This document shows, piece by piece, positions 21,001-24,000 of a stretch of DNA of 64,000 bases. The position numbers are program-made. Where the stretch lies: positions 485,946-549,945 of the forward strand of contig NC_014168.1 of assembly GCF_000092825.1 (NCBI RefSeq), given 5' to 3'. The stretch comes from Segniliparus rotundus DSM 44985. Lineage in GTDB: Bacteria > Actinomycetota > Actinomycetes > Mycobacteriales > Mycobacteriaceae. The stretch's first letter is position 1; each line of letters begins with the position of its first letter.

Positions 21001-24000
21001 GTGCGGGATATGGCGCGCCAGGCTGTATTGCAAGAGTTGGAAATGGCGCAAAACGCTTTGAGCGCGGAATTCGAACCATGCTCGGTGCTCGCTCTTGCGT
21101 CAGAAATGTTGGACTCGAAAATCCTCGGCGGATTGATGTCTCCATGCTGAAAGAACGTGTCCGTCGTGAAATTTCGATAACCCTGCGGCTCAATATCAAC
21201 AACATCTGGGTGGCGATGTTCCCCGCAGTGGTGTTCGCGGCGGCGGGATGGGTCTCGAATGGCAGCTCCAGCGCGACAGAGGCCCTCAAATTTCTCGCAG
21301 CGCTGGTCTGGTCTTATTTTTTCAGCTATGTCTTCGATGCGGCGAACCAAGCTGTCGGGTGCGAGGAGGACGTCCTCAACAAGCCGCACCGGCCGATTCC
21401 GCACGGCCTCGTCGACTCGCGGGGCCTCTGGGCCCGTTATCGGTGGGCTTCGGCTCTTTTTGTCGCTGTTTCGCTGGTCGGCAATGCCACCACTCTGGCA
21501 GCGTCTTTGGGGTGGGTGCTTGTCACGTTGTTCGCGCACACCCAGCTCAAGCCTCGCCACTACTACCTGTGGAAACCTGTGACCACATGGCTCGGCGTGG
21601 TGGCCCAACTCGCTGGCGGCTGGTCTTTCATGGACGATTTGGCGAGCGAAAGCATCATGTGGATCGTTGTGGTCGCAACTATGTTCATCGTGGCTCAGCC
21701 TATAGAAGACGTGCGTGACATCGCAGGCGACACTCGCATGGGCAAGGTTTCGTTGGCGTACTTGTTCGGAGCGAAGAAAGTATGCGTGGCTTTCTGCCTG
21801 ATCATTGCGGCATGGCCGTTTTTGGCGTACGCGCTGTTCCTGCACTCCTCGACTCTGTCGCCTTGGGAATGGGGGGCTTTGCTTTTGCTCGGCGCGCTGT
21901 GCGGCATTGCTTTTCACCACGCCTACCAGTGGAATTCACTCCACCATCAAAGGCGTGCCTACATTGTGTACTGTTTCGCCTATATCGCGCTGACGTTGGT
22001 CCCTTTGAGCTGTCTTGTGTCTCGATGACGCGGCAATATTTCGAGTATGGAATCGGCCTTCACCAAGGAGGAATCGCGGTGGCTCATGGAGTTCGCTAGA
22101 GGGAATGTCGGCACTGTCGACCTGGTGGACGCGCAAGGCCGCTCAACAGGTGTGAGACCCGTGGCCGACGCGCACCGGGCGCCAGGCGTTCTGCACCGCG
22201 CCTTCAGCGTGCTGTTGCTCCGGGACGGCAACGAAATGCTTTTGCAGAGGCGTTCGGTCGCAAAAGAGCGGTGGCCTGGTTTTTGGTCGAATAGCTGTTG
22301 CGGGCATCCGCGTTCTGCAGACACCCTCGTCGACGACGCGAAGCGTCGTGTTTTCGAAGAGCTCGGCATTCGTGTGGACGCGCTCGAGCATGCCGGATCT
22401 TTCGTGTACCGAGCAACGCTGCGCGAGTGGACGGAACACGAGTACGACCATGTGCTGATCGGCAACATGGCCGGGGAGGACTCGCTCTTGCGGCCGGATC
22501 CGAAGGAAATCGGCGAGTTGCTGTGGCTTCCCGTGCAAGATTCCCTGGAGGCCCTGCGCCAGGTCACCCCCTGGCTCCCCCTGGTCCTGGAACAAGTCCG
22601 GGCTCGTCTTGCCTGAGCCGCCGCGCCGTGCGTGATCTTGGCCGGGGAAACCGCGCCCCCGTTGCGCGGTCGTCATGAAAAGGGCTTAAGCTGGGCGCAT
22701 GAACCGCCAAGAGGAGTTCGTGCTCCGCGCGCTCGAAGAACGGGACATCCGCTTCGTCCGCCTCTGGTTCACCGACGTGCTGGGTTACCTCAAGTCGGTG
22801 GCCATCGCCCCAGCGGAGTTGGAAGGAGCCTTCGCCGAGGGCATCGGCTTCGACGGTTCCTCCATCGAGGGCTTCTCCCGCGTGTACGAGGCGGACATGG
22901 TCGCCAAACCGGACCCGTCGACGTTCCAGGTCCTCCCGTGGACCACGAGCAGCGGCAAGCACCACTCCGCGCGGATGTTCTGCGACATCGCGATGCCGGA
23001 CGGCTCGTCCTCCTGGGCCGACTCCCGATATGTGCTGCGCCGCCAGCTCAATCGCGCCTTGGAACTCGGTTTCTCTTGTTACGTCCACCCGGAGATCGAG
23101 TTCTTCCTGCTCAAGGACTCGCCGTCGAAGCTCGCCCCGCCGGTGCCCGCCGACGACGGCGGGTACTTCGACCAGGCCGTGCACGATTCGGCCCCGGACT
23201 TCCGCCGCCATGTCGTCCACGCGCTGGAGTTCATGGGCATCTCGGTCGAGTTCAGCCACCACGAGAACGCGCCCGGCCAGCAAGAGATCGACTTGCGCTA
23301 CGCCGACGCCCTGTCCATGGCGGACAATGTCATGACGTTGCGCTACCTGGTCAAAGAGGTGGCGATCCAGGAGGGCGTGCGCGCCACGTTCATGCCCAAA
23401 CCGTTCACCCAGCACGCCGGTTCCGCCATGCACACGCACATGAGCCTCTTCGAGGGCGAGGCGAACGCCTTCCACAGCCCGGACGACCCGCTGCAGCTGT
23501 CGCCGATCGGCAAATCGTTCATCGCGGGCATCCTGGAGCACGCGAACGAGATCAGCGCCGTCACAAACCAATGGGTGAACTCGTACAAGCGACTCGTCCA
23601 AGGCGGCGAGGCCCCCACGGCGGCCTGCTGGGGCGCGTCAAACCGCTCCGCCCTCGTGCGGGTGCCGATGTACACGCCGAACAAAGCCTCCTCGCGCCGC
23701 ATCGAAGTGCGCAGCCCGGACTCCTCCTGCAACCCGTACTTGACGTTCGCGGTCCTGCTCGCCGCAGGTTTGCGCGGTGTGGAGAAAGGCTACGACCTGC
23801 CTGCCCAGGCCGAAGACGACGTGTGGTCCTTGTCCTCGGCGGAGCGCAAAGCGATGGGGTACCGCCCGTTGCCGGAAAGCCTGTCCGAGGCCCTCACCGC
23901 GATGGAAGGCTCCGAGCTGGTCGCGCAAGCCCTCGGCGAGCACGTCTTCGACTACTTCCTGCGCAACAAACGCCACGAATGGTCCGAGTACAGCCGTCAA

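What the first reader, a model, noticed from the sequence alone, without database searches (positions are those of the whole stretch)
21144..22028. UbiA-superfamily protein with degenerate first Asp-rich motif but intact second motif
The RP(I)PxG anchor and the second motif EDVRDIAGD (DxxDxxxD) are canonical. The upstream motif that normally reads NDxxDxxxD is NQAVGCEED. Because this protein sits with an IDS-like gene and idi but no aromatic-acceptor or quinone genes, it could be a UbiA-type terpene cyclase or a prenyl-lipid transferase rather than an aromatic prenyltransferase.
Basis: partly seen in the sequence, partly recalled or inferred. Interest (0 to 1): 0.55.

Follow-up and report, generated by a model that had tools for sequence, protein, structure and literature searches.

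The report
Acquired membrane terpene cyclase cassette
The gene encodes a membrane-bound terpene cyclase of the UbiA type, not a quinone prenyltransferase, and its odd "first motif" is the normal signature of that known enzyme class; it sits in a small three-gene cassette that this Segniliparus strain picked up horizontally.

Summary
ORF 21144..22028 (+, 294 aa) is a UbiA-superfamily protein (Pfam PF01040, E 2.7e-18). It has NQAVGCEED where canonical members have NDxxDxxxD, plus an intact RPIPHG anchor and EDVRDIAGD.

The first motif is not degenerate. N68, Q69, E75 and D76 are invariant in 102 diverse homologues. Published work gives NQxxG/AxxED plus DxxDxxxD as the signature of UbiA-type terpene synthases such as Fma-TC, EriG, StsC and the sponge enzyme AcUbiA1.

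All close relatives carry this signature and form one clade in an NJ tree, apart from the NDxxDxxxD DGGGP-synthase-like proteins. Models for MenA, UbiA, DGGGP synthase and ChlG score far below their cut-offs, and no DPPR-synthase model matched.

The gene overlaps an upstream isoprenyl diphosphate synthase by 7 nt and is followed by a type-1 IPP isomerase. The 2.75-kb cassette (about 19881..22627, GC 0.595 against 0.68) lies between an abhydrolase gene and glnA. These two genes are adjacent in a congeneric Segniliparus genome and in three other Mycobacteriales.

Most likely it cyclises the synthase's product (probably GGPP) into a membrane terpene. The product is unknown. It is a new member of a known kind, of moderate interest.

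The parts
19881..22627 (+). The whole inserted cassette: upstream non-coding region, IDS-like gene, UbiA-type cyclase gene and idi. GC is 0.595, against 0.676 and 0.678 in the flanking 10 kb.
   Evidence: blastn against the cassette-less Segniliparus MAG locus L044: homology stops at the abhydrolase stop codon (19880) and resumes at about 22628, and about 25 bp in L044 take the place of 2747 bp here. abh and glnA are adjacent in L044-L047. GC values.
19881..20127 (+). Upstream non-coding region. It holds a hairpin after the abhydrolase stop (CCGACGCC/GGCGTCGG, 19882..19901). It also has an AT-rich stretch with TTGACA at 19993..19998 and two GCAATAT(A/G)TG copies. This is a possible promoter/operator.
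   Evidence: Repeats. The stretch is conserved with L001, including TTGACAGAAAAC, CAATATxTGAC and GGAGCTGGAAGGAC just before the ATG. The consensus promoter scan itself called no site, so promoter function is inferred only.
20128..21150 (+). Isoprenyl diphosphate synthase-like gene, 340 aa from ATG 20128 (the mechanical ORF starts at GTG 20074). FARM is DDIMD at 20419..20433, with F at -5 and G at -4. SARM is atypical: NDAAS at 20794..20808.
   Evidence: PF00348, E 4.5e-45. Best NCBIfam hits are the family 2 encapsulin cargo polyprenyl transferase (184.9 bits) and GGPP synthase IdsB (112.6 bits), both below cut-off. Motifs. The start follows the L001 gene call and upstream conservation. Best PDB hit is 3nf2, a Streptomyces coelicolor polyprenyl synthetase.
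21144..22028 (+). UbiA-type (membrane) terpene synthase, 294 aa. Its ATG overlaps the IDS stop (ATGCTGA), which suggests translational coupling.
   Evidence: The AlphaFold2 model has pLDDT 97.6 and is all-helical. The closest solved folds are UbiA-superfamily members.
21345..21371 (+). Motif I, NQAVGCEED (residues 68-76), the terpene-synthase form of NDxxDxxxD.
   Evidence: PMC13483135 (NQxxG/AxxED).
21390..21407 (+). RPIPHG anchor (residues 83-88).
   Evidence: R83 is invariant, and P84 and G88 are conserved in at least 90% of sequences.
21705..21731 (+). Motif II, EDVRDIAGD (residues 188-196). D189, R191, D192 and D196 are invariant. E188 stands where most family members have Q.
   Evidence: PMC9835599 (QDxxDxxxD; D-to-A mutants of Tps1A are inactive).
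22047..22616 (+). Type-1 isopentenyl-diphosphate delta-isomerase (idi), 189 aa.
   Evidence: NF002995, 148.9 bits against a cut-off of 127; TIGR02150, 117 bits against 105.8; NUDIX domain.

Best explanation
The gene encodes an integral-membrane, UbiA-fold terpene synthase (cyclase). It belongs to a self-contained three-gene operon, IDS, cyclase and idi, that the Segniliparus rotundus lineage acquired horizontally.

Proposed mechanism:
1. The isomerase balances IPP and DMAPP.
2. The upstream isoprenyl diphosphate synthase elongates them to a short-chain all-trans prenyl diphosphate, most likely C20 GGPP.
3. The UbiA-type enzyme binds the diphosphate through Mg2+ held by N68 and E75/D76 of motif I and by D189/D192/D196 of motif II.
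4. It ionises the substrate as a class I terpene synthase does. Instead of passing the allylic cation to an aromatic or lipid acceptor, it lets the cation attack the chain's own double bonds.
5. A cyclic terpene hydrocarbon or alcohol is released into the membrane.

Shown here: the fold, the motifs, family membership by sequence, gene order, the insertion, and purifying selection. Inferred: cyclase activity, the C20 substrate, and the product, which is unknown.
For: 1. The motif pair NQAVGCEED and EDVRDIAGD matches the signature stated for UbiA-type terpene synthases. That signature is NQxxG/AxxED plus DxxDxxxD (PMC13483135) and Nxxx(G/A)xxxD plus QDxxDxxxD, with D-to-A mutants inactive (PMC9835599).
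2. An exhaustive HMMER search found 1728 cluster representatives. Nearly all of the top 150 in which the motif could be read carry NQxxGxxED and D(L/F/V)RDxxGD. N68, Q69, E75, D76, R83, D189, R191, D192 and D196 are invariant in 102 sequences.
3. Among genome hits, all 11 with E <= 1e-14 (Actinomycetota and Bacillaceae) have the NQ form. The weaker archaeal and Bacteroidota hits have mostly NDxxDxxxD (some other D-containing forms) and, where it could be read, KDxEDxxGD. In an NJ tree the NQ sequences form one clade that excludes all ND sequences.
4. A 90% cluster in the family (P0026, with an Archangium member) is named '(R)-axinyssene synthase' by JGI/IMG. The window protein aligns to it over its full length at 29% identity, E 2e-30.
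5. A prenyl diphosphate synthase is adjacent in the window, L001, L005, L006, L011 and L048. idi is also present in the window, L001, L011 and L048. Relatives sit beside typical terpenoid tailoring genes: FMO, Rieske oxygenase, methyltransferase, P450.
6. The protein is not an orthologue of any characterised transferase. NCBIfam scores are at most 40 bits against cut-offs of 102-494.
7. The genes are intact and constrained. dN/dS against the L001 orthologues is 0.33-0.39.
8. The cassette is absent from the same site in a congeneric genome and in three other Mycobacteriales. It is therefore an accessory function, not an essential quinone or cell-wall one.
Against: - No biochemical data exist for this protein or its actinobacterial subclade. 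The nearest functionally named relative is only 29% identical, and that name is an automatic IMG label.
- Sequences of the characterised enzymes (PtmT1, StsC, StlTC, EriG, Fma-TC) could not be obtained, so direct comparison was not possible.
- The closest solved structures and curated models are transferases (DGGGP synthase 6m31, AfUbiA, ApUbiA). No UbiA-type cyclase structure turned up in PDB for comparison.
- It is not proven that every NQ-motif protein is a cyclase.
- The partner IDS has an atypical second motif (NDAAS, and HDP in place of GKP). Its activity and chain length are uncertain.
- The cassette has no tailoring enzyme.
Confidence: 0.75

Rival explanations
1. It is a prenyl-lipid transferase that attaches the IDS product to a non-aromatic membrane acceptor, such as a glycerol-phosphate lipid, in the manner of archaeal DGGGP synthase.
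For: The best solved-structure and curated-model similarities are to DGGGP synthase: 6m31 at E 3.4e-11 by profile and Foldseek rank 1, and PRK12884/PRK12882 at about 40 bits. The cassette holds no aromatic-substrate genes.
Against: The scores are far below the family cut-offs (40 bits against 269-296). Motif I lacks the two Asp that most DGGGPS-like hits retain as NDxxDxxxD. The NQ clade is separate from them. No GGGP synthase or G1P dehydrogenase gene lies nearby. The literature assigns this motif form to cyclases.
Confidence: 0.12
2. It is an aromatic or phosphoribosyl prenyltransferase of primary metabolism: MenA, UbiA/COQ2, or the decaprenyl-phosphate phosphoribosyltransferase Rv3806c.
For: Public annotation calls it 'UbiA prenyltransferase' or '4-hydroxybenzoate polyprenyltransferase'. 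Mycobacteriales do need MenA and DPPR synthase.
Against: TIGR00751 menA scores 17 bits against a cut-off of 102. ubiA_other scores 39 against 180.8. No DPPR-synthase model was hit. The PRTase 8j8j is only Foldseek rank 15, E 0.012. The gene is missing at this site in a congeneric Segniliparus genome and in other Mycobacteriales, which argues against a conserved core gene at this locus. The non-canonical motif I is not shared with those enzymes.
Confidence: 0.04
3. It is a decaying or catalytically dead remnant of a transferred gene, and the altered motif reflects loss of function.
For: The cassette has lower GC and GC3 than the host. It evolves faster than the flanking genes: 76-83% against 92-97.5% amino-acid identity to L001. 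The partner IDS has an altered SARM.
Against: All three ORFs are intact in two lineages, with dN/dS of 0.33-0.39. Every family-invariant residue is retained. The 'altered' motif is the family norm, not a lineage-specific lesion. The structure prediction is very confident (pLDDT 97.6).
Confidence: 0.06

Closest known systems
Bacterial UbiA-type diterpene and sesterterpene cyclases: StlTC (lydicene synthase, Streptomyces lydicus), (R)-axinyssene synthase, the bacterial cyathane synthases, and StsC (somaliensene synthase)
   Same: They share the UbiA membrane fold and the NQxxGxxED plus (Q/E)DxxDxxxD motifs. They also pair genomically with a prenyl diphosphate synthase and act directly on a linear prenyl diphosphate. 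The window protein is 29% identical over its full length to the Archangium member of the cluster that IMG names (R)-axinyssene synthase.
   Different: Identity is low, so the product cannot be transferred. The window protein falls in a distinct actinobacterial subclade (Rhodococcus, Brevibacterium, Streptomyces, Amycolatopsis) that has E instead of Q before motif II. Its host is a mycolic-acid bacterium. The cassette is minimal, with no tailoring genes, and includes idi.
PtmT1 (ent-atiserene synthase, platencin pathway, Streptomyces platensis)
   Same: It is a UbiA-type terpene synthase from an actinomycete (PMC10301674).
   Different: PtmT1 acts on ent-copalyl diphosphate made by a class II cyclase. 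No class II cyclase is present in this cassette or within about 10 kb.
Fungal UbiA-type cyclases: Fma-TC, EriG, and Tps1A/Tps2A
   Same: Motif I is Nxxx(G/A)xxxD and motif II is QDxxDxxxD, and the aspartates were shown to be essential by mutagenesis (PMC9835599). Fungal (Schizophyllum) proteins are detected by the family profile.
   Different: They are eukaryotic and distant. In the NJ tree the Schizophyllum sequences fall outside the bacterial NQ clade.
Archaeal DGGGP synthase (6m31) and the AfUbiA/ApUbiA prenyltransferases
   Same: These are the closest solved structures (TM about 0.63). They have the same helical fold, the RPxPxG anchor, and DxxDxxGD as the second motif.
   Different: They have the canonical NDxxDxxxD first motif and transfer the prenyl group to an acceptor. 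Sequence identity is 13-18%, and NCBIfam scores are far below cut-off.
Mycobacterium tuberculosis diterpene locus (Rv3377c/Rv3378c with GGPP synthase Rv3383c IdsB)
   Same: From my own knowledge, this is an accessory diterpene pathway in a mycolata pathogen with its own GGPP supply. The window IDS scores 112.6 bits on the IdsB model.
   Different: The cyclase chemistry and fold are entirely different: a class II cyclase plus Rv3378c there, a UbiA-type enzyme here. No homology is implied.

Membership tests
UbiA-type (non-canonical, membrane) terpene synthases | UbiA-superfamily multi-helix membrane fold | tested here: met
   PF01040 at 66.6 bits. The AF2 model has pLDDT 97.6 and is all-helical. 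The top Foldseek hits are all UbiA-superfamily structures.
UbiA-type (non-canonical, membrane) terpene synthases | Motif I NQxxG/AxxED in place of NDxxDxxxD | tested here: met
   NQAVGCEED at residues 68-76, aligned to NDifDieID of 6m31. N, Q, E and D are invariant in 102 homologues. The definition comes from PMC13483135 and PMC9835599.
UbiA-type (non-canonical, membrane) terpene synthases | Motif II (Q)DxxDxxxD | tested here: met
   EDVRDIAGD at residues 188-196, with all three Asp invariant. Q is replaced by E, as in the whole nearest actinobacterial subclade.
UbiA-type (non-canonical, membrane) terpene synthases | Phylogenetic grouping with biochemically characterised cyclases | tested here: inconclusive
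   It groups with all NQ-motif proteins and apart from ND-motif transferases. It is 29% identical to a protein in a cluster that IMG labels (R)-axinyssene synthase. Sequences of StlTC, StsC, PtmT1, EriG and Fma-TC could not be retrieved with these tools.
UbiA-type (non-canonical, membrane) terpene synthases | Genomic association with a prenyl diphosphate supply or a terpenoid cluster | tested here: met
   An IDS overlaps the gene start and idi follows it. IDS adjacency recurs in L001, L005, L006, L011 and L048.
UbiA-type (non-canonical, membrane) terpene synthases | Cyclisation of a prenyl diphosphate without an acceptor | not testable with these tools
   This needs heterologous expression or membrane assays with FPP, GGPP and GFPP.
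Decaprenyl-phosphate phosphoribosyltransferase (Rv3806c, 'UbiA' of mycobacteria) | Sequence orthology, canonical Asp-rich motif I, and a conserved core-genome position | tested here: not met
   No NCBIfam model for it was hit at E <= 0.01. The structure 8j8j is only rank 15, E 0.012. Motif I is non-canonical. The gene is absent at this locus in related genomes.
MenA (DHNA polyprenyltransferase) | Score above the TIGR00751 / PRK06080 cut-offs | tested here: not met
   17-19.8 bits against cut-offs of 102-346.
UbiA/COQ2 4-hydroxybenzoate polyprenyltransferase | Score above the family cut-off, and NDxxDxxxD | tested here: not met
   TIGR01475 ubiA_other scores 39.2 bits against 180.8. Motif I lacks two Asp.
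DGGGP synthase | Score above the PRK12882/12883/12884 cut-offs, and NDxxDxxxD | tested here: not met
   30-40 bits against 269-353. The DGGGPS-like genome hits carry mostly NDxxDxxxD and form a separate group.

The most novel reading that the evidence does not exclude
The cassette may be a minimal, mobile 'terpene lipid' module. In this reading its IDS-like partner, which has an ND-type second motif, is not an ordinary GGPP synthase. It would make an unusual prenyl diphosphate or act as a non-canonical partner, and the UbiA-type enzyme would convert that into a new terpene scaffold. The product would stay in the mycolic-acid envelope and alter envelope properties or host interaction, comparable in role to tuberculosinyl-adenosine in M. 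tuberculosis.
Probability: 0.12. Interest if true: 0.65.

Novelty: new member of a known kind. Interest (0 to 1): 0.38.

Why it matters
Public databases annotate this protein as a 4-hydroxybenzoate/UbiA prenyltransferase. Recognising it as a UbiA-type terpene cyclase corrects that annotation.

It also points to an uncharacterised actinobacterial subclade of these enzymes, found in Rhodococcus, Brevibacterium, Streptomyces, Amycolatopsis and Segniliparus. The three-gene operon is unusually compact and could be expressed directly to find its product.

The known set of bacterial UbiA-type cyclases is still small, so each new subclade may yield a new scaffold. A horizontally acquired terpene pathway in a mycolic-acid opportunistic pathogen is also of some interest for envelope biology.

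It does not change current understanding of the enzyme class.

Tried and rejected
- **Orthology to MenA, UbiA, DPPR synthase, DGGGPS, ChlG or heme O synthase.** Rejected on NCBIfam scores, PDB sequence and fold ranks and motif form.
- **'Degenerate motif through decay'.** Rejected because the motif is invariant family-wide and dN/dS is about 0.33.
- **Retrieving sequences or names of characterised cyclases.** A profile search of the word-indexed database returned only 14 hits and no curated names. The afdb50 fold library was not available. The Alsup 2025, Rudolf-Chang 2020 and 'Bacterial terpenome' papers are not held. No supplementary files are held for the two motif papers. Searches for 'axinyssene synthase' and 'lydicene' gave nothing useful.
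- **Segniliparus-specific terpene literature.** None found.
- **Reading the IDS second motif NDAAS as a terpene-synthase NSE triad (NDxxSxxxE).** Rejected. The ninth position is G, and the nearby E in L001 is not conserved in the window.
- **A link between the cassette and the FAD monooxygenase at 27024..28244.** Only weak family-level similarity (26-32%) to the monooxygenases next to relatives. Left as a note.
- **Consensus sigma-70 promoter scan of the upstream region.** It called no site. The TTGACA hexamer is conserved with L001, but promoter function is only inferred.
- **Target-site duplications or mobile-element genes at the insertion borders.** Neither was found.
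Full report
**Source and observation**

The window comes from Segniliparus rotundus DSM 44985. The translated ORF is 100% identical to that organism's 'UbiA prenyltransferase'. ORF 21144..22028 (+) is open for 294 codons and matches Pfam PF01040 (UbiA) at 66.6 bits, E 2.7e-18.

| Feature | Residues | Nucleotides |
|---|---|---|
| NQAVGCEED | 68-76 | 21345..21371 |
| RPIPHG | 83-88 | 21390..21407 |
| EDVRDIAGD | 188-196 | 21705..21731 |

A profile alignment to the solved archaeal DGGGP synthase 6m31 puts NQxxGxxED opposite NDifDieID, and EDvrDiaGD opposite kDfeDmeGD. Two of the three canonical aspartates of the first motif are therefore replaced, by Gln and Gly.

**The motif is a conserved signature, not a degenerate one**

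- The four closest homologues (33-76% identity) all keep N68, Q69, E75 and D76.
- An exhaustive HMMER search of 1.84 billion cluster representatives found 1728 relatives at E <= 1e-3 and 102 at E <= 1e-30.
- Nearly all of the top 150 in which the motif could be read carry NQxxGxxED and D(L/F/V)RDxxGD.
- In an alignment of 102 of them (16-76% identical to the query), the invariant residues are N68, Q69, E75, D76, R83, D189, R191, D192 and D196. The consensus is NQxxGxEEDRxNKPxRPLPxGL ... QDLRDxxGDxxxGRRTLP.

The literature held here defines this pattern as the mark of UbiA-type terpene synthases. [quoted passage not shown] It also shows that Asp-to-Ala mutants of Tps1A lose activity (PMC9835599).

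**Separation from the transferases**

A scan of one genome per species returned 39 loci. I extracted the encoded proteins from 29 of them.

- All 11 hits with E <= 1e-14 carry NQxx(G/S/D)xxED. Where the second motif could be read, it is (E/Q)DxRDxxGD. They come from Rhodococcus, Amycolatopsis, Streptomyces, Spirillospora, Nonomuraea, Oceanobacillus and Bacillus.
- The weaker hits are archaeal, Bacteroidota and similar DGGGP-synthase-like proteins. They carry mostly NDxxDxxxD (a few have other D-containing forms) and, where it could be read, KDxEDxxGD.

In a neighbour-joining tree of 131 sequences, the NQ proteins form one clade that excludes every ND protein. The window protein nests in an actinobacterial subclade with Rhodococcus, Brevibacterium, Streptomyces, Amycolatopsis, Nonomuraea and Salinifilum members.

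Curated NCBIfam models of characterised transferases score far below their cut-offs:

| Model | Score (bits) | Cut-off (bits) |
|---|---|---|
| DGGGPS-type | 30-40 | 269-353 |
| ubiA_other | 39 | 181 |
| ChlG | 32 | 313 |
| MenA | 17-20 | 102-346 |

No model for the mycobacterial phosphoribosyltransferase was hit.

The AlphaFold2 model is very confident (pLDDT 97.6). Its nearest solved folds are MjDGGGPS, AfUbiA and ApUbiA (TM about 0.63). The Rv3806c-type PRTase 8j8j ranks only 15th. No UbiA-type cyclase structure appeared in either PDB search.

One 90%-identity cluster inside the family, which has an Archangium member, is named '(R)-axinyssene synthase' by JGI/IMG. The window protein aligns to it end to end at 29% identity, E 2e-30. 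That name is an automatic label. From memory, it derives from the characterised UbiA-related diterpene cyclases of Yang et al. 2017, cited as reference 44 in PMC13483135. I could not read that paper here.

**Gene context**

The cyclase ATG overlaps the stop codon of the upstream gene (ATGCTGA). That gene is a polyprenyl synthetase (PF00348, E 4.5e-45). Eighteen bases after the cyclase stop comes a type-1 IPP isomerase that passes its equivalog cut-off (148.9 against 127 bits).

Everything else between about 10 and 33 kb is housekeeping: biotin carboxylase, maf, rhomboid, two abhydrolases, panB, glnA, an ldh/mdh-type dehydrogenase, DoxX, a FAD monooxygenase and a Band-7 protein. There are no quinone, aromatic-acceptor, class II cyclase or P450 genes.

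Pairing with an IDS recurs in relatives:

| Locus | Organism | Gene content |
|---|---|---|
| L005 | Rhodococcus | IDS, UbiA, flavin monooxygenase, plus ABC transporters |
| L006 | Amycolatopsis | IDS, UbiA |
| L011 | Nonomuraea | amine oxidase, Rieske oxygenase, IDS, methyltransferase, IDS, UbiA, idi, then transposases |
| L048 | Brevibacterium-like | UbiA, IDS, a NUDIX::IDS fusion, FAD monooxygenase |
| L049 | Archangium | the IMG-named axinyssene-synthase homologue, next to a P450 |

They are terpenoid-cluster contexts.

**The cassette is an insertion**

- GC falls to 0.595 over 19881..22627, against 0.676 and 0.678 in the flanking 10 kb.
- GC3 of the three genes is 0.71-0.75, against 0.83-0.91 for most neighbouring genes.
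- In a congeneric Segniliparus MAG (GlnA 95% identical), the TAP-like abhydrolase gene is followed directly by glnA, with a 97-bp spacer.
- blastn shows homology to the window ending at the abhydrolase stop (19880) and resuming at about 22628. About 25 bp there correspond to 2747 bp here.
- The same abhydrolase-glnA adjacency holds in Rhodococcoides kroppenstedtii, Mycobacteroides abscessus and Mycobacterium koreense.
- A second Segniliparus-like metagenomic contig (L001) carries the cassette at the same site.

Between the window and L001, the flanking proteins are 92-97.5% identical, while the cassette proteins are 76-83% identical. dN/dS is 0.33-0.39 for the cassette genes and 0.06-0.19 for the flanks, with similar dS. 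The cassette is therefore functional but under weaker constraint.

No transposase or target duplication marks the borders. Relatives do lie beside mobile elements. In Streptomyces L007, two paralogues sit between a Tn3 transposase and a resolvase.

**Mechanism**

The most likely reading is a self-sufficient operon. The isomerase (idi) and the IDS supply a prenyl diphosphate. The membrane enzyme ionises it on Mg2+ bound by the two motifs and cyclises it.

The IDS first motif is DDIMD with no insertion, with Phe at -5 and Gly at -4. By established chain-length rules this fits a short-chain, most likely C20, product. The closest named models are an encapsulin-cargo polyprenyl transferase and the GGPP synthase IdsB, both below cut-off. 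Chain length and product remain inferences.

**A caveat about the IDS**

Its second Asp-rich motif reads NDAAS rather than DDxxD/G, and the following GKP is HDP. Both features are conserved in L001. ND-type second motifs also occur in one of the two IDS genes of L011 and L048, where a canonical IDS is present as well. Here the ND-type IDS is the only one in the cassette. Whether it is a normal GGPP synthase needs an assay. This is the main source of the 'novel case' below.

**Rivals**

- *Prenyl-lipid transferase (about 0.12).* Its only support is that the nearest solved and curated relatives are DGGGP synthases. Motif, clade and context argue against it.
- *Core-metabolism prenyltransferase (about 0.04).* Effectively excluded by model scores and by the gene's absence from the same site in related genomes.
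- *Dead remnant (about 0.06).* Contradicted by the intact invariant residues and by purifying selection.

**Novelty**

UbiA-type terpene synthases are an established class in fungi, bacteria and, recently, sponges. This is a new and uncharacterised member in an unusual host, with a compact and clearly acquired operon. It corrects a database annotation and offers an easy expression target. It is not a new kind of system.

Interest is 0.38. The most novel reading not excluded is an unusual IDS partner and a new envelope terpene with a role in host interaction, as detailed in the section on the most novel reading. I put that at about 0.12 probability, with interest 0.65 if true.

Noticed in passing
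window 20794..20808 (IDS-like gene 20128..21150); also L001 3147..4169, L011 6886..7917, L048 2837..3892: The isoprenyl diphosphate synthase next to the cyclase has an atypical second Asp-rich motif: FQYMNDAAS instead of FQxxDDxxD/G, with GKP replaced by HDP. This is conserved in the L001 orthologue. ND-type motifs also occur in one of the two IDS genes of the Nonomuraea and Brevibacterium-like clusters, where a canonical IDS is also present.
   Followed up: partly
L007 5010..13374 (Streptomyces sp. NPDC008001): Two NQ-motif UbiA-type paralogues (8005..8919 and 9803..10849) lie between a Tn3-family transposase and a resolvase, followed by a Mu/rve-type transposase. The cyclase genes appear to ride on a transposon.
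   Followed up: partly
L048 4102..5733 (Brevibacterium-like contig): A single 543-aa protein combines a NUDIX (IPP-isomerase-like) domain with a polyprenyl synthetase domain, next to a UbiA-type cyclase and another IDS. This is a natural idi::IDS fusion that supports the functional link of the three genes.
   Followed up: no
window 19990..20127: An AT-rich upstream region is conserved with L001. It has a perfect TTGACA at 19993..19998, two GCAATAT(A/G)TG copies 29 nt apart, and an 11-nt inverted repeat (20041..20051 / 20058..20068). It may be a promoter and operator, although the consensus promoter scan called nothing.
   Followed up: partly
window 25139..28244 versus L044 8443..12500: Downstream of the ldh/mdh-type dehydrogenase gene, the window and L001 carry DoxX and a FAD_binding_3 monooxygenase (27024..28244). 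The cassette-less Segniliparus MAG has metal-hydrolase and GDSL-lipase genes there instead. The monooxygenase is only 26-32% identical to the monooxygenases beside UbiA-type cyclases elsewhere, so any link to the terpene pathway is weak.
   Followed up: partly
L002/L003 1..13244 (metagenomic contigs carrying P0005): A 38%-identical relative sits in a larger putative biosynthetic cluster. The cluster holds an IDS, tryptophan 2,3-dioxygenase, two AMP-binding enzymes, a polyketide-cyclase-like protein, an SDR, a FAD monooxygenase, an MFS transporter and a carbamoyltransferase. This could be a meroterpenoid-type pathway.
   Followed up: no
window 35344..39765: A second GC dip (0.62-0.64) with strongly positive AT skew coincides with ORFs of 160, 156, 702 and 397 aa. 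Their sizes and order resemble rpsL-rpsG-fusA-tuf, but this was not checked with a family search.
   Followed up: no
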